The notes below the pieces were generated by a model. That model did not search any database. It was not told where the DNA came from and was given only the letters and a program-made list of their open reading frames with translations. This document shows, piece after piece, positions 2 through 63,735 of a stretch of 64,000 nt of DNA; within the stretch, counting starts at the first letter, position 1, and each line of letters starts with the position of its first letter. Location of the stretch: positions 117,676,001 through 117,740,000 of the forward strand of contig OZ024740.1 in assembly GCA_964016885.1 (NCBI GenBank), read 5' to 3'. The translations under genes were made by a program, and so were the position numbers. Source of the DNA: Eledone cirrhosa. Its lineage: Eukaryota.

Positions 2-1500
2 TCCGCCTTTCTCGACTCCATCCTCGCCCCCCTTGTCACCACCCTCCCCTCCCACATCTCCGACACCAACCACGCCCTGCGCCTTTTCGACTCCATCACC
101 TACCCACCCGGCCCACAGCCCTTCCTCTTCACCCTAGACATCAAGTCCCTCTATACCGTCATCCCCCACGCCGACGGCCTACGCGCCCTCAAACACTACC
201 TCGACCTTCGCCCCTCCTCATTCCCTCCACCCCACCCTTCTTCGCCTCGCCGAGCTGGTCCTCACCCTCAATTGTTTCTCCTTCTCGGGTGAGTTTTACC
301 AACAGGTCACGGGGGTAGCCATGGGTACAAGAATGGGCCCGAACTATGCCAACCTTTTTGCTGGCCATGTTGAGGCCCAAATCTTTGCCCAGTACACCGG
401 CCCCACGCCCGAAATGTACGGTCGTTACATCGACGATGTATCGGAGCCACGACCCTCACCCGGGAACAGCTCGACTCCTTTCTCTCCTTCTTCTGCTCCT
501 TCCACCCCTCCCTCCACTTCACCACCTCTATCTCCACCACCCACGTCCACTTCTTAGACATCTCCGTCGCCTTCGACCCCTCCCACCACTCCCTCGTCAC
601 CTCCGCCTTCTTCAAACCCACCGACTCCCACTCTTACCTCGACTTCACCTCTTCCCACCCCACACACACTAAATACTCTATCCCCTACTCCCAACTCCTC
701 AGGATCCGCCGGCCTCTCTAGCCGAGATGCCGACTTCGAGTCCCAGGCCCTTTCCCTAGTCAGCCATTTCATCCGCAGAGGTTACCCCCCTCTCTCGTCC
801 ACACCGCTCTCACCCGCGCCCGTGCTGTCCACCGCTCCACCACCCTCACCCCACGCCACCGCACACCCACCCACCGTCTCCCTTCCCCATTACCTACCAC
901 CCCTCCACTTTACCCCTCCACCGCACCATCCGCCGCCTCTTCTGACGCCTCCAGTCCGACCCCTCCACCTCCCACATCTTCACAGCCCCACCACTCCCCT
1001 CCTTCAAACGCGCACGCAATCTCCGCACCCTCCTCGTCCACAGCTCCCTACTCCCCAACCCACGCTCTCTTCCTCTCCCCCGGTTCCTTTCCCTGTTCTA
1101 GGCCCCGCTGCAACACCTGTCCCCACATCACCAACACCACCACCTTCCAGGGTCCCAACGGCCACTCTCTCTCTTTCCGGCATGCCTTCCGCTGCACCTC
1201 CTCCAACCTAGTCTACGGACTTCGCTGCACGGAGCGCAGCGCGACTTACGTCGGACAGACTGGACGTCGCCTGGCGGACAGATTCACTGAGCACCTCCGG
1301 GATATTCGTCTCGGTGGTAGTTCCCCCATCGCCCGCCACTTTGGTGGCCCTGGAGACTCCGCACGCCATCTCACAGTCTGTGGGCTACTCCAATGCCACG
1401 GAACACCCGCCAATCTCCTCAGAGTTGAACAAAGAACCATCTTCAGCTTACAGACCCACACTTCCCCCGGCCTGAATCCCCACCCTTATTCCTTTAGCCT
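2..1500 (+). pseudogene. Frameshifted Penelope-like RT/GIY-YIG ORF
   Basis: Conserved motifs are spread over different frames; only fragments such as ORF 321..557 are open. Confidence 0.88.
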
Positions 1501-2925
1501 TCGACCGCCCCCCTCCCCTCACACACATCCCCCGCTAACACCACTAACACACCCCTCCTTTTCACCGACTACCCCACTACTCCACCTCACATCCGACCAC
1601 CCTTCCCCAACTAACATACTAACATCCCTCCCTTCTTCTCCTCCCCCCTCCTTATCACACGCACACACCCACCGGCACATATATACACGCGCTCACACTA
1701 AACACACACCCTAGTACCACCACTAACCCTCACCCCCACACATCCACCCCACCACCCCGCAACTAACATCACTAACACTCCCTGACCCCAAGCACACGAA
1801 CACAGGCACCCACTTACACCACCCACCCTACACGCAACTAACATCACTAAGACCCCCAACCCCACGCACACGTACACACACACACCCTCTTACACCACCA
1901 ACTCTACACACCCTACCACCACTGACCCCCACTCACACCCGCATTCAACCCTTTCTCCACCTCCTGTATACTAACACCCACTAACACCTCCTTCATCAAA
2001 CTACACACACACCAGTACACCACACTCCCCACATCGTCCCCCACACCCTTCTCTCCCCGCTCCACCCACACCCTTTCTCAAACACTCACTCATCCCACTA
2101 ACACCTCTACTAATACACACACACACCCTCTCACTCCAACTTTCACACCTACCTATCCTCGCCCCTTTACCATTCCACCCTACTGCTGCTATGCCCTCTG
2201 ACCACCTCCCTGCACACACAGACACACAGCACTCCTACTGCCTTGACCACTTCCTGTTGCGCGCGCACCCCACATCTCCCCTCTTCCGACCAATCTCTTC
2301 ACGGATTACTCGTATGTGGACCTTCACCGTGGAATCAACTACCATCCTATGATTTTACCAACCATTCTACCACATCTTACGGAATCACCTTTACGACTCA
2401 CCCACACACACACCCCCAAAAATATTTTTTCCCCACACGCCACCTACACCCACAACACGCTTAAACACCACACACACACACGTGCGTCTCACCACATATT
2501 TACACATTCAGCATCCGGATTCCTCTCCCCCCACCCCTCTATCCACACACGCACACACACTCCGACCTACACCCCACCTCACACACACCTCTTCCTGAAC
2601 ACGCAACCCCGTTCTTCCCCTCAACCCTTGCTTTCACATACACACACACACACACAGACGTACACCTACACACACCACCTTCAGCCCTCCCCGCTCGGAC
2701 ACCCCGTCTCCCTCTCCCCACTCCACCCGCCACCACCCCTACACGCCCCACATCCTTCCACCACCTGTTTTACCCCAGTTTAATTTTATTTTGATCATGC
2801 TTTTATTTTTATTTTTATTTTTAATTTTTATTTTCATTTCCACCGTTTCCTCCCACCCCTTTTTTGCTATATGTCTCTCCACCACTCCCCTACACACCAT
2901 TTGAACTCTCTTCCCACACACTTTT

Positions 2926-3139: not shown

Positions 3140-3359
3140 CGCAGATTAGAGCAAACATCACGAGTGCTATATCTCAAAATTATTTTTGAAAAGCATTAGA
3201 AATGCGCAACCGGTAAAACTCAAACTGAATACTAACCAATACTTATTACTAATTTATACTTATTCCTAATTAAACTATTTTTCATTGGGAAAAATTTGTC
3301 AGCATTTTCTTTTCCTTTTTACTAATATATCACAACTCGTGTGTCACATCTCTATTTTT

Positions 3360-22267: not shown

Positions 22268-23324
<1,057 letters not shown>

Positions 23325-34612: not shown

Positions 34613-34739
34613 GGAGCGTTCCGTATTGAGCGTTCCGTATTGGCATACGGCTTATCTGGGGCATTTTCAATCGGCTTATTGCAAATAACAACCCGCAAAA
34701 TAACACTTCATATAACAGATTAATGCTATAGACATATGA

Positions 34740-36837
34740 ATCGGAATGTAACCCGTGAACTTTTTCCTAGGCAAAATTATTCGAACAGACATGACCTCAT
34801 TGCCAGAGTGTTCAGACTGAAACTGGCTAAACTCATGGCTTTAATAAAAAAAGGTCAGGTATTTGGGGCTGTAAAATGTGACATGTTCACCGTCGAATGG
34901 CAAAAACGATGGCTGCCACATGCTCACATTTTGATTTGGTTAGCTGATAAAATCAATTCAAATGCCATGGACAGCTTCATTTCGGCTGAAATCCCTAACC
35001 CAGCAACTGACCAGGAATTACATGACATCGTCAAAGCTAACATGGTCCGTGTGCGTCGGGTCCTAATGGGCATCACACGTGGTATCCCTTACGGTCGTGC
35101 AGTAAGGGATACAAAAAAAAATTGTTGACGAGACTCAGACTGGTGGCGATGGGTACTCCCTGAACAGGCGGAGACGGCCCGAGAACGGTGGCTTCACCAT
35201 AACAGTAAAGGGAGGTCAAGTCGACAATAGATGGGTGGTCCCTTACTGCTCGCTTCTCTTGAAGATGTTCAACGCCCACATCAACGTTGAGTTTTGCAAC
35301 TCCGTCAAGTCTATAAAATACATATGCAAATATGTAAATAAGGGCTCTGATGAGGTCACAGAATACCTGGCGGGGCGGTACATCAGTAGCAATGAAACTT
35401 TTTGGCGCCTATTTGGTTTCCCCCTACACCAACAGCCCCCCGCCATCGTACAGCTTGCGGTACATTTGGAAAATGGGCAAAGGGTTTACTTTACGGACCA
35501 AACCGCCGCCGAGCTGGCCGCCGATCCGAAAGAGACACCTCTAACAGGTTTCTTCAAACTTTGCCAGTTCGATACATTTGCGCAAACAATTGTGTACCCC
35601 CAGGTTCCATCCGACTTTATATGGTCGAAAAACACTTGGGTGAGAAGAAAGTCAGGTCAGGCTGTTGAAAGACATCCTGGTGTAAAATTTGACAGCTGTC
35701 TTGGAAGGGTTTATACACTGTGTCCCCAAGTCAGCATGAGTGCTTTCATCTCTGCCTTCTTCTGCATGAAGTTGTAGGCCCACAAAGTTTTCAGGACCTC
35801 AAAACTGTTGATGGAGAAATATGTGATACGTACCGGGAAGCCTGCTTTAAGCGTGGTCTTTTGGAAGATGATTCACAATGGGATTCCACTTTAGCAGAGT
35901 GTGCTTTGTTGAAATCACCTAAAGGTCTAACGGGAACTCTTTGCCATTTTGCTTCAAAAGTGTGAATTGGGTGATCCCAAATCTTTATGGGTCAAGTATA
36001 GAGACTTCATGTCTGAGGATTTCCTCCGCCTGGCTCATCTGCAGCATCCTTCAGTGGAAGTTGCTTACAGCGGCATTATCTACAACAGGGCACTCATTGA
36101 TATCGAGGACGCCCTCCTCGACATGGGTGGGAGTGGGTTGGCGACGTATGGCTTGCCGTCAACCGTCACAGATGAAGCTAACACGTTGGCTCCGGATTTG
36201 TTGCGGGAAACAGCATATGACATCGAATCTCTTTCCCAATACTTAGCGGAAAATGAGCCCAAACGTCTGTCGGACCAAAGGTTGGCCTATTTAACTATCA
36301 TTGACGCGGTTCAAAATCAGACTGGGGGTATTTACTTTCTCGGTACGTGGGGGTACCGGAAAAACTTTTGTAACAAAATTGATTCCCGCTAAGATTCGTC
36401 AGGAGAAAAAAATTGCGTTGGCCGTTGCATCGTCCGGGATCGCTGCTACTTTGCTGCCGAGAGGCAGGACAGCACATTCAACCTTTAACCTCCCCTTGGA
36501 TTTAGTAAAAACTGAGACACCAAGATGCAATATCAGCAAAAGATCACACGAAGCTCTGGTTCTCAAAAAATGTCGCCTCATTGTTTGGGATTAGTTCCCA
36601 ATGGCACACAAGGGTGCCCTTGATGCATTGGACATGGCCCTGAAAGACATTAGGGATTCTACGGTTCCTATGGGTGGCGTAACCCTTCTGCTATCAGGGG
36701 ATTTTCGGCAAACACTGCCTGTCACCCGCAAAGGGACAAGAACTGATGAAGTGCGTGCCTGCCTTAAGTCGTCCACGTTGTGGCCCCAGGTGAAGACTTT
36801 GTACCTGAGCACAAATATGCGTGCTCATAGCAAATGA
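34740..36837 (+). pseudogene. Helitron Rep-helicase, frameshifted and truncated
   Basis: HUH motif VEWQKRWLPHAHILIW, NAHINVE..SIKYICKYVNKG, LAVHLENGQRV, GGTGKTF, ASSGIAATLL, GRTAHSTF, GDFRQTLPV, LSTNMR. Confidence 0.93.
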
Positions 36838-40739: not shown

Positions 40740-42030
40740 CATATATCTTATATGAATTGATACATTTAACATCTAATTGAGATATACATGTGTGGGTAAT
40801 AGGACAATGGGATTGATGAGTTAATATATGTATACAGCAACTATAACGGTACGCGATGGGGCCCACCCACAGCCCCGGCGGACAGAATGAAGAAGGTGTT
40901 TCCCCGGTGGACGGCAAGGCAGACGTGCTGGAAAAGCCACTCCAACTCGCGGGGCTCACACCTGCGGCTGGCCAGCTCATCGCCTATGGTGGTGAGTAAA
41001 GAGGTAGCCTTGGGGCCGAGGACACCAGAAGTCTCCACTGCCAGAGGTACGACCGCAAACCTGTCGGAGAGCGACCGGTACTTGAGGAGTTTGGCCCCCT
41101 CAGCCCGACGTGCAGCAGAACCTGGGTCAGTCGCAGACTGCACCAGGTTGCGGCTGCAGAAAGTGTCGGAGGAAGTGGCATCCCAGACGAGGGGTTTGCC
41201 ACCGCGGAACGGGGAGATGGTCATGCCATCTGGCCTTTTGCCGTCCCCTCGATCCATCCCCACCGGCTCGAGCTGGGAAGGGAAGCCTGCAGCGTCCAAG
41301 CCATGCTTAATGACCTTGTTGAGGGCAGCATGGCGTGGAATGCGGCCGGCACTGTGGCGACAGGAAAGCGGGTGGAGGCCGAAAGAGTCCACGGTGAAAC
41401 CGCAGCGACATTGGTGTGGCTGGCAGATCCGGAGGCCGAGCCTCAGAGAAACGCCGATGCGCAGGCTATGGTTGTCTAGCTGCGTGCCATTGGAGAAGGA
41501 GGGCAGGGCATGGAGCCAGACACCACTGTGGGGTTTGGAGGCCGCACGAAAACAAGCAAGGCGGTGCTGGTCCAGCTGGCGCGTGAGCCTGTCTGAGGCC
41601 AGGCTGCACTGGATGGCATCCCAAGTGCGTTGGGGGAACTTAACGTCAACAGGGGAGAAGGAGGAGGGACGTCTACTGGGCTAATTCCCAGCCGGTCCCA
41701 CGTCTCACAGGCAGCCTCACATTCTCTGAACACAGAGGGTTTTGTTGTGTTTTGAAGAACCCTGCTGACGAGGACGAGGCACGAGCTAACCGACGAAAGA
41801 TACGCCGGCAAAGCTAGTGAGATCGGGGACCGGAGGCCAAGGCCGCCATACCTGACAGGTAAAGTGGCCTGTTGCCATCCTATGTCGTCAAATTTGACGT
41901 TGCATATCTCCTCGGCTGCTGCTCGGATACAAGTATCGACGTCAGCGAGGAGAGATGTCTGGGTGTAGCACGGAGCGCTGCGGAGTGTATAGAGGAGCTT
42001 CGGCATGGCGAAGCAGTTCCTCAGCAGGAG
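40740..42030 (-). mobile_element. CRE-clade-like non-LTR retrotransposon, 3' part with restriction-like endonuclease
   Basis: PKLLYTLRSAPC, QATLPVRYGGLGLRS, GLHPLSCRHSAGRIPRHAALN, DGKRPDG..PLVWDAT, K..KY, PLAVETSG (ORFs 41476..42006 and 40841..41392). Confidence 0.88.
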
Positions 42031-42057
42031 AAATACGGTATATATCTGAAAGATATA

Positions 42058-42213
42058 TACCGCATTTCTCGGCGTCGAAGACGCTATTTTTTATTCCTAA
42101 AATAAGTCTCGAAAATCTACCATGCGTCCTGGAGGCCGAAAGTTGTTTATTATTTTTTTCCAGATTTTGGTTGTAAAAATTAGGGTCCGTCCTCGAGGAT
42201 GAAGCGTCCTCGA
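42058..42213 (+). mobile_element. pogo/Tc2-like MITE, right end truncated
   Basis: Left end taccgcatttctcggcgtcgaagacgc; internal inverted gcgtcct blocks; right end stops at gcgtcctcga. Confidence 0.6.
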
Positions 42214-45030: not shown

Positions 45031-46122
45031 ACATACATATATACATACATATATTAATAAATACATATATACATACAAACATTCACACATACAAACATAC
45101 ACACATACATTCAGACATACATTCATGCATAGATACACACATATATTCATACAAAAATACACACATACAAACACACACACATCCATTCAGACATACATAC
45201 ATACATTAATACATACATACATCCATTAATACACACATACATAATTTGAAGTAAAAAAAAAGTAAAAACATTAGCAATTAGTGGCGTACAAAGCAATATT
45301 TCTCCTACGACATTGTCTTATCTAAATATGTATCAAGAATGATCTAATGTTTACTGACAATTAATGGAGAATAATTAGAGTCTGGGTAAGACAGTTTATG
45401 GTGTAGACGAAAGCGAAATGATTTAGATAGCAACGTAAGAGATATGAAGAGGTGCGGATGATTTGAAGGAGAAAGGAAGCAAGAGAGCGGAACAAATCCT
45501 TCTAATTTCCTGTAGGTACCGGTGAGAAATGGCATGTATTAGAAAAGAAATAAAACAACAGAGTACTAGGTTCAACTTTATATTATTCAGAAGGAGGTTT
45601 TAAATCATATATGGATGTACATATGTAAGTTTGTACCTTTACATGTACACCCCTATATACATATATATATGTATATATATATATAACATATACATACATA
45701 TATGTATATATATATTTATATATATGTATATACATATATATATATATATATAAAGAATTAGTATATCTACCAACATATATATACAGATGCATACCTAGCA
45801 TAGGTATGCATCTGTATATATATGTTGGTAATATACTAATTCTTTATAATTATCTCCAAATTATTTTGTTGAGCAAAAATTTGCTAAAATTGCTACTATA
45901 GTTAATAGTAATGGCTCGGCTACTGTCTTTTAACACCCCACTCCTCACTGATTAACCTCGATGTCACGTGATTGATTCTTTTGAATTTGCCACCGACCAA
46001 GTAGGTAGTAATTTTTTCAATGTCTTGGAATTTAGTCCACGCTTGCTTTTTTCCATCCACTGAATTATTTTTGTATAAGTTCCCTGTGTCTACGCATCGC
46101 CTGGTAACTTATCTGAGAACAG

Positions 46123-46202
46123 ACTTCCTGATGACGAAAGGCTTTCCATGCTTTCCATTGGAAACTATGTTTATTCCCTTTCAGAAACTAATTAGTTGGA
46201 GT
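46123..46202 (+). ncRNA. Type I hammerhead ribozyme with extended stem II
   Basis: acttc-CTGATGA-cGAAAGG...CCTTTCa-GAAA-CTAATTAG-TT-ggagt. Confidence 0.8.
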
Positions 46203-46290
46203 GAAATTTTACTAAGTAAGTTAATTTTTATAATTTTCTTATTTTACGTATTTCATATATATATATATATATATGCTTACATATATATAT

Positions 46291-46629: not shown

Positions 46630-49401
<2,772 letters not shown>

Positions 49402-57130: not shown

Positions 57131-57404
57131 TTATTTATTGTTAGGCATCTCACGATCGCTGTTGAAGTTGTTTAGAACTCGAGCACATCTCAAAATTGCA
57201 TAACATCGCATAACTGACTGATTGATTCTCATCCAGCCATCCTTCTGTGGAAAAACTTCGTCTTTTCCGAAATTCCGCTTTGCAAAGAGAACTTGATAAA
57301 ATTGTACGTATCTTATCAAGTTGATTTGGACAATACCAAATGTAATTCTACTATTCTGAGGATCAACTCGTCATTTGACCTATACTGTTCCTCCTGCATT
57401 ATTA

Positions 57405-57782
57405 TGTGGATTGGCAGTATCGGTAGAGAGTCGGACGCCATGCGTTCCAGCATAGTTACGTCCCTTTACGATCTGAGTTCAAATCCCGCCGAGGTTGACT
57501 TTGCCTTTCATCCTTATGGTGTCGATAAAATAAAGTACCAGTAATGGACTGGGTATTTGCTGGCCTTGTGCCAAAAGTAGAAACAATTATTATGTGGATT
57601 GGCAGTGCCGGTAGAGGGTCGGACGCTCTGCTTTGACGCATAGAGTTACGGCCCTTGCCATTCTGAGTTCAAATCCCGCCGAGGTTATCTTTGCCTTTCA
57701 TCCTTACGGGGTCGATAAAATAAAGTACCAGTAACACACTGGGTTATTGCTGGCCTTGTGCCAAAAGTAGAAACAATTATTA
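57405..57782 (+). mobile_element. Tandem pair of main-family SINEs
   Basis: Two units starting attatgtggattggcagt (about 57401 and 57589). Confidence 0.9.
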
Positions 57783-58099
57783 TCAGAGATAATCTATGTC
57801 ATATCCTTCACGTGTATGAGTTATAAAAACGCTGCTCTGGAGCGTTTATGTGGCCCTTACGCTTTCTTAGTGCATGACATTTCATTTGCCAGGCTGCTCT
57901 GAACGATGTATTTAAATGATATCTGCACGCTGCCGGTTTCCTATCATTAGTGGAAACTCTCGGCTTCGCCCGCACGCACACGGACGGAATAACTATTTTA
58001 CCGTTTGAGAGTTGGAAGTCGCTCATTTGAAATACCGCCTCTAGTGACATATTCTCCGGCGCTAATATTTTTGGCTATAAACAACTCTAAGGAGTGGAA

Positions 58100-60461: not shown

Positions 60462-61571
60462 ATGAGCAGGATGAGAAGGATGAGGATGAGGAAGAGGTCA
60501 GGAAAGTGAACGTTATGTGGCATTTCTACTCAGTTCTACACACCACATAATATGCTATCTAAATTATATTTTAATTTCAGATTTACTAAGTATTTTAGGA
60601 ATATTTTTAAATACTACAGTAAAAATTATTCTTTTGTTAAACTAACATATGAAAGAAAAGGAGACTCAGCTTTTTACTCCCTCTGTGTGTGTATCTGCAG
60701 TTGTGTGTGCGTGCGTGTGTGTGTGTCCCTGTGTGGTAGTGTGTCTTTCTGTGACTGTGTGTATCTGTTGGTGTGTGTGTGTGTAATCTCTCTCTCTCTC
60801 TCGGCGCGCGCGTGTGTGTATTTTCAGACTGGCTTGCTCAACTTACGATTTCTTTTATTCGTTCTCTGTTATTTCTCTCATATATTTTATCTTATAGTCC
60901 GTAGTTTTATCAAATTGTTTTAATTTAAATATGTATAGCATCAGTGGCCAACCAAAGAAAGAGGACTATAGAAAACCTGCAACAAAATAATAGAATAAGC
61001 ATATACACGTCAGTAAACTTTTGTGAGGAAGTACATAATAGATAACATCTATCGTTCCACTACTTCACCTGATATCTGCTTTATCCACCCTGTGATGATG
61101 GAAGGCAAAGGTAACCTTGGTGGAATTTGAACTCATAAAGCGAACAAAGGTAGCTATATACCACTAAGTATTATGATCGATGCTGTATATAAGTAATCAA
61201 ATAGTAACGTTCCCCTTAAATATCAACACTATATTTTAACAGGGAGATAATTCTGTCATAAGCAGTAAAAGTTATTTCCCATGGCACTTTTTTTTTTGCA
61301 TTACGTCACGAATTTTCGGACTCCTAATTGAAATAAAAAGATAATTGTGTGACGTAAGTACGTAAATATTTATTTTCTAATGCTTAATCTGATAAATGGA
61401 CAGAAATCATTTTACCGGAAAATATTTTAATGAATAACTTAATTAGAATCAGAGTGTTTGTTATACTATAATGATGAATGAGTGAGGAGTGTCCGGTTCA
61501 ACGTATAAGTTTGTGTGGAGATAAGATACTTCACTAGCTCAGTGATACAATGAAAGATTATGTGTGTGTGT

Positions 61572-62304: not shown

Positions 62305-62502
62305 GATTTCTATTATAGGCACAAGCCCGCAAATTTGGGAGAGGGAAAAGTCGATTAAATCGATACCAGTGTATTACTGGTGCTTTATTTCATCGACCTC
62401 GTAAGGATGAAAGGCAAAGCTAACATCCGGGTGATTTGAACTCAGAACTTAAAGGGCCATAACTCAATGTTGCAAAGCATGGTGTCTGATACTGCAATCA
62501 AC
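62305..62502 (-). mobile_element. Main-family SINE
   Basis: Reverse complement of head, core and tail. Confidence 0.85.
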
Positions 62503-62891
62503 TGTGATGGCATGGGAGAAATTATAGACGAGAGGAGACACTTGCGCACTCAGGTACCTTTTTTGGCAGGTAACATGCTTTCAATGGGAGTTAACTGAAC
62601 TGAAAGCGAGATGTTCTTAGTTCTACCACTTTCACATTAACACACCTTCGCATTGGGTAAACAATTATATATATATTACTATTCTCCTCTTGGTTGAGAA
62701 CAAATTTGGTCGTTCTGACTGCTGCTATTTATAGCGGGATTCGACTGACCTCCCTGCCTCTGCCTCCATATTTACACACGGCACTTGAAAGAATTGCTTC
62801 CACTTCTTTTACTCTCATCTCGGGAACAATTTTGAATAGCGCCAGTTCGTAATTTGAACTCGGGAATTTTATATTCTCCGAGTGAAAAGAT

Positions 62892-62972
62892 CCTTCTGAC
62901 GAGAGTTTTTCTCTGCAACGGATGCCGTATGGACTCCGTTTATTTTTGAGACTCGAAACCGATTCGGTAAGT
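62892..62972 (+). ncRNA. Hammerhead copy 1, stem I disrupted by deletion
   Basis: cctt-CTGACGA-GAGTTT...AGACTC-GAAA-CCGATTCGG-TA-agt. Confidence 0.7.
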
Positions 62973-63359
62973 AAAGTTAATTTTTTAAAATTTATTTTGA
63001 AACTTTTTATTATTTGCTAAACCTTGATTATATATGTTCTGGTTCGTTAATTTATTAACCTGCCATTGAACCACATTGGCATATGGTTGGACAATACATG
63101 TGTCCCTTAGCGCCTTGTGCGTGTAGGAACATATACTCTATTATTACTTAGCTCCTCTTGGTTGAGAAAATATTTGGTCATTCTGACTGCTGCTAGTTAT
63201 AGCGGGAATCGACTGACCTCCCTGCCTCTGCCTCTATCTTTACACACGGCACTTGAAAGAATTGCTTCCACTTCATTTACTCTCATCTCGGGAACAAATT
63301 TGAATAGCGCCAGTTCGTAATTTGAACTCGGGAATTTTATATTCTCCGAGTGAAAAGAT

Positions 63360-63441
63360 CCTTCTGACGAGAGTTTTTCTCTGCAACGGATGCCGTATGG
63401 ACTCCGTTTATTTTTGAGACTCGAAACCGATTCGGTAAAGG
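63360..63441 (+). ncRNA. Complete canonical type I hammerhead ribozyme, copy 2
   Basis: cctt-CTGACGA-GAGTTT...AGACTC-GAAA-CCG att CGG-TA-aagg. Confidence 0.9.
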
Positions 63442-63735
63442 TAACCATAGTAAGTAAAGTTAATTTTTTAAAATTTATTTTGAAACTTTTTATTATTTGC
63501 TAAACCTTGATTATATATATATATATATAATGGCCTATTTTTTCACGGAGAAAGTCATAGGATATGTGACATTTTCTGAGTTGGACGCAACAAAAAGTTG
63601 TTCTTAGTTCCTGATAGAAAAACAACGAGTATTGCGTAATCTCGAGTACAGCAATGAATACTGAGAAAAAGTTACTGACTAAAAGATAAATCTTCATTTA
63701 GTGTAATTATGTATATTAGGACAGTACTTTCAAAA

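What the first reader, a model, noticed from the sequence alone, without database searches (positions are those of the whole stretch)
62674..63518. 468 bp-period retrozyme-like tandem with one intact and one disabled hammerhead
Seen: two repeats of about 365-375 bp with a spacer of about 105 bp, and no credible ORF. Copy 2 has a fully canonical fold (4 bp stem I, long interrupted stem II with aacgga/tccgtt, CCG/CGG stem III, GUA at 63437). Copy 1 lost 14 bp right after the cleavage site, removing the 3' strand of stem I and creating G|GTAAGT, a consensus splice donor. Extra hairpins upstream (agttc/gaact, ctcggga..tccgag) suggest a highly structured RNA. Inference: non-coding retroelement whose ancestral unit (about 480 nt) could be excised and circularised.
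Basis: partly seen in the sequence, partly recalled or inferred. Interest (0 to 1): 0.75.

Follow-up and report, generated by a model that had tools for sequence, protein, structure and literature searches.

The report
Penelope-footprint hammerhead retrozyme, one broken copy
This 845-base stretch is one of over a thousand scattered insertions of a non-coding 483-base repeat with a hammerhead-ribozyme motif, a known kind of element (animal retrozyme) that is likely pasted into TA microsatellites by Penelope-like retrotransposon enzymes; the broken ribozyme in the first copy is a one-off deletion.

Summary
Real, and a new member of a known kind. The unit is 483 bp (63036-63518); the 'spacer' is part of it. 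The locus is 1.75 units between (TA)n tracts. The genome holds 696 exact copies of the hammerhead 3' half and 1008 exact 3' ends. Copy 2 has a full type I hammerhead whose stem II covaries between subfamilies. Copy 1's deletion is 15 bp, occurs once in the genome, and GTAAGT is present in both copies.

Insertions carry the Penelope footprint: 5' truncation, partial tandems, inverted arms, and two fixed 3' ends (A and B) 109 nt apart, with a covarying hairpin before B. 30 of 34 head-to-head insertions pair one A end with one B end; none pairs like with like. Both arms share one haplotype (4-5% vs 46% discordance between loci). ORF-bearing Neptune/Nematis-type elements here show the same rule, but no partner sharing extended sequence was found.

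Cleavage and circles are untested. This locus likely cannot release a unit circle. This scan noted the same footprint before in other families, in this and other genomes.

The parts
62674..63518 (+). Whole insertion, 845 bp, 1.75 units, single-armed, 3' end at site A
62674..63035 (+). Copy 1: 5'-truncated unit (unit positions 107-483) with a private 15-bp deletion; its 5' end joins the left TA tract at the TAT of site B
63036..63518 (+). Copy 2: complete 483-bp unit (38% GC)
63360..63441 (+). Intact type I hammerhead motif; predicted cleavage after A63437; stem III is near-palindromic (ACCGATTCGGT)
62892..62972 (+). Hammerhead of copy 1, lacking the 3' strand of stem I (2 bp left instead of 4)
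63036..63144 (+).
63098..63134 (+). Hairpin just before site B; 16 bp in the best copies, covarying between subfamilies
63511..63518 (+). End site A (TTATATAT), also internal at 63028-63035; main 3' end of insertions
63136..63144 (+). End site B (CTCTATTAT); 3' end of the second arm in inverted insertions, internal at this locus
63450..63455 (+). Donor-like GTAAGT (GTRAGT across the family), also at 62967; splicing not shown
63438..63508 (+). Predicted hairpin that would compete with hammerhead stem I; no covariation support
62666..62675 (.). Left (TA)n target tract
63519..63529 (.). Right (TA)n target tract

Best explanation
This locus is a 5'-truncated, 1.75-unit insertion of a dispersed non-coding 483-bp hammerhead repeat (non-LTR retrozyme) that was likely reverse-transcribed into a (TA)n tract by a Penelope-like RT/GIY-YIG protein supplied in trans, likely from one uncleaved or re-circularised RNA. 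SHOWN: unit, copy number, TA flanks, two fixed 3' ends A and B, A+B pairing in inverted insertions, one haplotype per insertion, read-through of the cleavage site, covarying stem II and tail hairpin, uniqueness of the copy-1 deletion. INFERRED steps: (1) a source locus with two hammerheads is transcribed and self-cleaves to a 483-nt monomer that is ligated to a circle; (2) a Neptune/Nematis-type protein binds near the tail hairpin and nicks (TA)n; (3) the nicked DNA end primes cDNA at site A, helped by UAUAU microhomology, and copying runs round the unit for up to about 2.4 turns; (4) in over a third of sampled insertions the opposite DNA end primes at site B on the same RNA, giving a head-to-head pair with a 109-nt tail on one arm; otherwise the cDNA end is joined to the TA flank, as here; (5) copy 1 later lost 15 bp by slippage between GTAA repeats, so this locus has one working hammerhead at most and would not release a unit circle.
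For: 696 exact hits of the hammerhead 3' half; 1008 exact A-ends running into (TA)n; 708 unit-unit junctions. In 88 distinct loci (133 arms), 119 arms end at A or B and 107 of those 119 run into (TA)3+. Inverted insertions: 30 of 34 A+B, 0 A+A, 0 B+B, 4 with one other end; single arms: 48 A, 7 B, 10 other of 65. Discordance at 40 polymorphic sites: tandem 25/486, inverted 21/502, between loci 46%. Stem II: 2 pairs fully compensatory between subfamilies and a third partly; 0/500 shuffles reach the covariation score; slid controls collapse (22 sequences). Tail hairpin: 0/500 shuffles, 16 double-change cells (27 sequences); z -3.2 to -7.5. Open RT + GIY-YIG frames of 1096 and 938 codons exist in this genome. 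Inverted pairs of their terminal repeats are A+B at 8 of 9 distinct loci. One such family has the same stem I (CCTT/AAGG) and ACCG..GGUA stem III. No pile-up of 5' ends at the cleavage site: 16 vs 9 at a control position. Literature: PLE tandem/inverted/tail structure (PMC8557442, passages); two internal RT start sites define the tail (PMC11167929, parts 1-2 of 4); retrozymes as PLE derivatives (bioRxiv 10.64898/2026.07.22.740005, parts 1-3 of 5).
Against: No autonomous element with extended similarity to the unit was found in the 50 GIY-YIG loci examined (drawn from 150 listed of 10,596 candidates), and a pattern for short-stem-II relatives gave only a deletion variant of this family; the partner is inferred from footprint. 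Circle and homogeneous linear multimer cannot be told apart from DNA. Shared haplotype could also reflect one dominant source locus at a time. Stem I is 4 bp, and in a 176-nt context a downstream hairpin out-competes it (pair probability about 0.75 vs 0.06); 8 of 9 predicted Xenopus retrozymes did not cleave in vitro (bioRxiv above). Covariation rests on two or three related subfamilies, so on few independent events; stems I and III are invariant and say nothing. In the older subfamily I read 6 A+B, 1 A+A and 4 unclear pairs. The A/B length classes for the Neptune-type repeats were set from the same data. A weak excess of 5' ends at 399-408 appeared in the sample (6 of 40, p 0.03, post hoc).
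Confidence: 0.8

Rival explanations
1. Same element and same enzyme, but the template is a linear, uncleaved multimeric read-through transcript; the hammerhead is dispensable for mobility and circles are rare or absent.
For: cDNAs read through the cleavage site. In the Anolis PLE, hammerhead mutants insert normally and unprocessed RNA is the main substrate (PMC11167929, part 2). A downstream hairpin is predicted to block stem I. Arrays are short (longest 1148 bp).
Against: With 5' truncation at each cycle, a purely linear route should shrink sources unless RT jumps templates, yet 8 of 60 loci hold two complete hammerhead spans. Core and stem II are kept across subfamilies about 75% identical. 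Mussel, coral and axolotl retrozymes form circles (PMC7229834, sections 14, 17 and passages).
Confidence: 0.35
2. The unit is the pseudo-LTR of an autonomous Penelope-like element not sampled here, and the copies are its truncated 3' ends.
For: Same footprint and hammerhead-A-tail-B order as ORF-bearing elements of this genome. Only 50 of more than 10,000 GIY-YIG candidates were examined.
Against: Where copies extend past one unit they wrap into the same unit (708 junctions), never into shared coding sequence. PLE protein hits near 15 places in sampled loci are not contiguous with the unit. Past site B the unit has no ORF, whereas the N1 family has its ATG shortly after B.
Confidence: 0.07
3. 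Local DNA-level duplication or satellite/MITE-like amplification, with the hammerhead a passenger.
For: Tandem units within a locus are more alike than between loci.
Against: Dispersed over many chromosomes, fixed 3' and ragged 5' ends, TA targeting, asymmetric inverted arms, no terminal inverted repeats, no long arrays.
Confidence: 0.03
4. The copy-1 deletion is meaningful: a template switch onto the ribozyme-cleaved 3' end, or an exapted splice donor.
For: The 4-nt microhomology window includes the cleavage site; two other deletions touch it (L082; L176); the -1 base becomes G.
Against: Junction unique in the genome; 18 deletions of 8 nt or more spread along the unit; GTAAGT pre-exists; no retrocopy with the one spliced junction tested.
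Confidence: 0.08

Closest known systems
Metazoan non-LTR retrozymes (PMC7229834; bioRxiv 10.64898/2026.07.22.740005)
   Same: Non-coding, low-GC unit with a type I hammerhead, in monomers to short tandems, many copies, co-occurring with PLEs.
   Different: Unit 483 nt, above the 170-400 nt of the first paper, within the 51-972 bp of the second. Long (52-nt) interrupted stem II. Dispersed 1-2.4-unit insertions rather than long arrays. Insertion-end rules (two sites, TA target) are not described in the parts I read. Cleavage and circles not shown here.
Endonuclease-bearing Penelope-like elements, Neptune/Nematis type (PMC8557442, PMC4209133)
   Same: 5' truncation, partial tandems, inverted 5' arm, tail on one end only, microsatellite targets, hammerhead with palindromic stem III.
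   Different: No ORF. Tail 109 nt against the 30-40 bp described (39-66 nt in this genome's ORF-bearing families). Canonical C3-G8 core, whereas the local ORF-bearing families N1 and N2 carry U3-A8.
PAc (Anolis Poseidon) in vitro mechanism (PMC11167929)
   Same: Two internal RT start sites bounding the tail, a stem-loop at the start region, both target strands extended, AT-rich target.
   Different: In PAc the start site is not homologous to the target and does not differ between strands. Here both sites have short TA microhomology and the two arms of one insertion almost always use different sites.

Membership tests
Non-LTR retrozyme | Type I hammerhead with complete core and three stems | tested here: met
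   (copy 2 and family); no Rfam hit
Non-LTR retrozyme | Short non-coding, low-GC repeat unit in tandem, multi-copy | tested here: met
   483 bp, 38% GC, no ORF, 708 unit-unit junctions
Non-LTR retrozyme | Two consecutive complete hammerheads ('active' definition of the 2026 preprint) at this locus | tested here: not met
   Copy 1 lacks stem I 3' strand; met at 8 of 60 other loci of the family
Non-LTR retrozyme | Self-cleavage | not testable with these tools
   needs in vitro transcription
Non-LTR retrozyme | Expression as unit-length circular RNA | not testable with these tools
   see Tried and rejected
PLE-type insertion | 5' truncation, partial tandems, inverted arm, one-sided tail | tested here: met
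PLE-type insertion | Microsatellite target bias | tested here: met
   107 of 119 A/B ends run into (TA)3+; 1008 exact ends
Autonomous PLE | ORF with RT and GIY-YIG between pLTRs | tested here: not met
Derivative of a named local PLE family | Extended sequence homology to that family's pLTR | tested here: inconclusive
   Only stem I/III and a CGTGTAGG word shared with family N1; 50 GIY-YIG loci examined
Neptune/Nematis clade (candidate partners L152, L153) | C-terminal GIY-YIG with CX2-5CxxC linker motif | tested here: met
   Motif read in translations, Pfam RVT_1 + GIY-YIG; no tree built, so Neptune and Nematis are not told apart
LTR retrozyme (plant type) | Type III hammerhead in LTRs around an internal region | tested here: not met
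   Type I topology, unit wraps on itself

The most novel reading that the evidence does not exclude
One retrozyme RNA circle is copied twice in a single event by an asymmetric (dimeric) Neptune-type RNP: the first DNA end always starts at site A, the second at site B beside a covarying 16-bp hairpin. Because (TA)n is self-complementary, the asymmetry must be set by the RNA-protein complex or the order of priming, not by the target. The 483-nt circle would be a minimal, ORF-free substrate that explains the Penelope inverted-arm-plus-tail structure and proves trans-mobilisation of animal retrozymes.
Probability: 0.4. Interest if true: 0.55.

Novelty: new member of a known kind. Interest (0 to 1): 0.32.

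Why it matters
The locus itself is an ordinary dead-end copy. The family gives countable support for a link so far argued from co-occurrence and pLTR similarity: that Penelope-like enzymes mobilise animal retrozymes. It also defines a small testable RNA (two start sites, one hairpin) for the unresolved second-strand and inverted-arm step of Penelope insertion. Five library searches did not list a paper on this family or on the A+B pairing. The library lacks most subscription papers, I read none of the supplements, and earlier unchecked notes of this scan report the same footprint in other families.

Tried and rejected
Rfam: no match in the window at gathering threshold or around the locus at E up to 10. 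Expression: no RNA holder listed; three runs of unrecorded kind from one sample were laid as contigs and show only many variants of the repeat; no conclusion on expression or circles. Spliced retrocopy: one candidate junction searched, 0 hits; other acceptors untested, so the conserved GTRAGT plus about 130-150 AG-free bases stays unexplained; it may equally be a helix strand. 'Anti-hammerhead' hairpin 63438-63508: predicted in all three subfamilies (z -1.2 to -2.2) but not in families N1, N2, N4, and covariation is no better than shuffles (282/500); kept as a prediction only. Stop of reverse transcription at the cleavage site: 16 vs 9 hits with patterns of unequal stringency, 11 of the 16 true 5' ends, controls not curated; no clear pile-up. 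Raw identity of paired arms: above the between-locus median in 38 of 41 tandem and 40 of 46 inverted pairs but rarely the top match. Lower mutation rate in the hammerhead not used, because 60 loci were picked by an exact match there. A shared 22-nt word near four GIY-YIG loci proved to belong to another nested non-coding repeat, not to their pLTRs. My first hammerhead scan had a register error and missed the motif; fixed. In one search the filter for indel-prone sites did not act, so the 40 sites include some from those regions. Duplicate loci L011, L030, L031 were dropped before the counts; L132 and L141 before those. Sequence look-up in earlier findings: nothing. The host was not identified; 'octopus' in my paper searches was my guess from genome size and microsatellite content.

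Full report
OBSERVATION. The window holds two copies 468 bp apart, differing by scattered substitutions, a small indel near their start and one 15-bp gap. Copy 2 carries a complete type I hammerhead: stem I CCTT/AAGG, CUGACGA, a 7-bp stem II base with a long interrupted extension, GAAA, stem III ACCG/CGGT and GUA ending at 63437. Rfam does not find it and the region folds no better than shuffles, so I tested it by comparison. An older subfamily about 75% identical keeps the core and changes stem II on both sides at two pairs fully and a third partly; 0 of 500 shuffles reach the covariation score and slid controls collapse (22 sequences). This rests on few independent events, and stems I and III are invariant.

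THE UNIT AND THE FAMILY. The genome is 3.0 Gb. The 'spacer' is part of a 483-bp unit, 63036-63518. Exact patterns give 696 hammerhead 3' halves, 708 unit-unit junctions and 1008 ends running into (TA)n; these are lower bounds. Copies differ from the majority by about 2% at non-polymorphic sites (108 pieces), so the family is young. The unit is non-coding.

INSERTION ANATOMY. I analysed 88 distinct loci: 28 from the similarity search and 60 taken in order from the first 100 listed pattern hits on C1. Of 133 arms, 119 end at one of two sites, A (unit position 483) or B (about 109), and 107 of the 119 run into (TA)3+. 5' ends are ragged; the longest arm is 1148 bp. 34 insertions are head-to-head: 30 pair A with B, none A with A or B with B, 4 have one other end (21 of 24 in the 60-locus set). 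Single arms end at A in 48, B in 7, elsewhere in 10 of 65. In the older subfamily I read 6 A+B, 1 A+A and 4 unclear. The 109-nt segment from A to B is thus the one-sided tail described for Penelope-like elements (PMC8557442, passages), which in vitro lies between two internal RT start sites (PMC11167929, parts 1-2 of 4 and passages). A hairpin of up to 16 bp ends about 10 nt before B in all subfamilies, with covariation above all 500 shuffles.

ONE TEMPLATE PER INSERTION. At 40 polymorphic sites, tandem rounds differ at 25 of 486 comparisons, inverted arms at 21 of 502, and copies from different loci at 46%. Each insertion therefore comes from one RNA, or from one source dominant at the time. 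cDNA reads through the cleavage site; 5' ends are not clearly piled there (16 vs 9; weak in-sample excess). The template was uncleaved or re-ligated; DNA cannot tell which.

PARTNER. The genome has over 10,000 GIY-YIG candidates. Among 50 loci examined are open RT + GIY-YIG frames of 1096 and 938 codons with a CX4CxxC linker, the Neptune/Nematis mark. Their terminal repeats have the same order (hammerhead, end A, tail, end B, TA flank), and inverted pairs are A+B at 8 of 9 distinct loci, five of them ORF-bearing (classes set from the same data). Family N1 shares stem I and the ACCG..GGUA stem III with the unit but has the U3-A8 core known from PLE hammerheads (PMC4209133, passages). No extended similarity to the unit was found, and no sampled copy is contiguous with an ORF. 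The partner is inferred from footprint.

COPY 1. The deletion lies between two GTAA words, leaves 2 bp of stem I and occurs once in the genome. 18 deletions of 8 nt or more were seen in about 190 aligned pieces, spread along the unit. GTAAGT is present in both copies and is GTRAGT in 127 of 148 copies; one spliced junction tested gave no retrocopy. The locus once had two hammerheads, like 8 of 60 sampled loci, and has likely lost the ability to release a monomer. A template switch onto a cleaved end is possible but not needed.

CAVEATS ON ACTIVITY. Stem I is 4 bp and a downstream hairpin is predicted to out-compete it, without covariation support. The near-palindromic stem III would allow dimer folding (inference from the sequence; dimers per PMC4209133). 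Only 1 of 9 predicted Xenopus retrozymes cleaved in vitro (bioRxiv 10.64898/2026.07.22.740005, parts 1-3 of 5). Circles are shown for mussel, coral and axolotl retrozymes (PMC7229834, passages and sections 14 and 17), not here. A recent Octopus vulgaris repeat annotation has no occurrence of 'hammerhead', 'ribozyme' or 'retrozyme' in its main text (PMC13282606, passages). No supplements were read; they may describe tails or families like this.

VERDICT. A new family member of the known non-LTR retrozymes with a clear Penelope insertion footprint. The intact/disabled contrast is incidental. After these analyses, a word search showed that the scan had noted the same two-armed footprint in other families of this and other genomes (unchecked notes, not support). 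Interest 0.32.

Noticed in passing
window 138-1714 and 2929-2952, 3186: Broken Penelope-like ORF (RT motifs read in translation; weak GIY-YIG Pfam hit, E 0.0012), a hammerhead-like core at 2929 and an N2-type terminal repeat at 3186.
   Followed up: partly
window 45750-46260: A second non-coding hammerhead family (core at 46128) with an inverted piece and TA flanks; relatives in L080, L109, L159.
   Followed up: partly
window 21697, 31125, 33242, 52051: Further hammerhead motifs; 31125 and 52051 match terminal repeats of ORF-bearing families N4 and N1.
   Followed up: partly
all fetched DNA, 1.10 Mb: Nine hammerhead groups found at 3 or more loci each (one mixes this family with N1), often nested in the same TA tracts; the sample is biased towards such nests.
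   Followed up: partly
L170:2898, L164:3819, L158:3576: Family N2 terminal repeats have a U3-A8 core and GCAA in place of GAAA in all copies seen; activity unknown.
   Followed up: no
L152:1775-5062, L153:4809-7622: Open RT + GIY-YIG frames of 1096 and 938 codons; candidate sources of protein in trans.
   Followed up: partly
window 63450-63455; L162:2242, L117:3117, L152:9139: Several unrelated hammerhead families have a splice-donor-like word (GTRAGT or GGTATG) 10-25 nt after the cleavage site; intron, U1 site or helix strand is unresolved.
   Followed up: partly
L080:2850-4866: Two full units of a diverged subfamily 1545 bp apart, each followed by a piece of the second hammerhead family; looks like a local block duplication.
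   Followed up: partly
window 61080-61138, 62389-62447, 57398-57783: Copies of another short dispersed repeat (75% alike), SINE-like by recall, flank the locus.
   Followed up: no
window 22660-23289, 34724-36392, 40841-42090, 46711-48745: Fragments of other mobile elements: HTH_32 hit, Helitron-like by recall (no Pfam hit for the piece tested), an unassigned minus-strand frame, and a LINE-type RT (RVT_1, zf-RVT).
   Followed up: no
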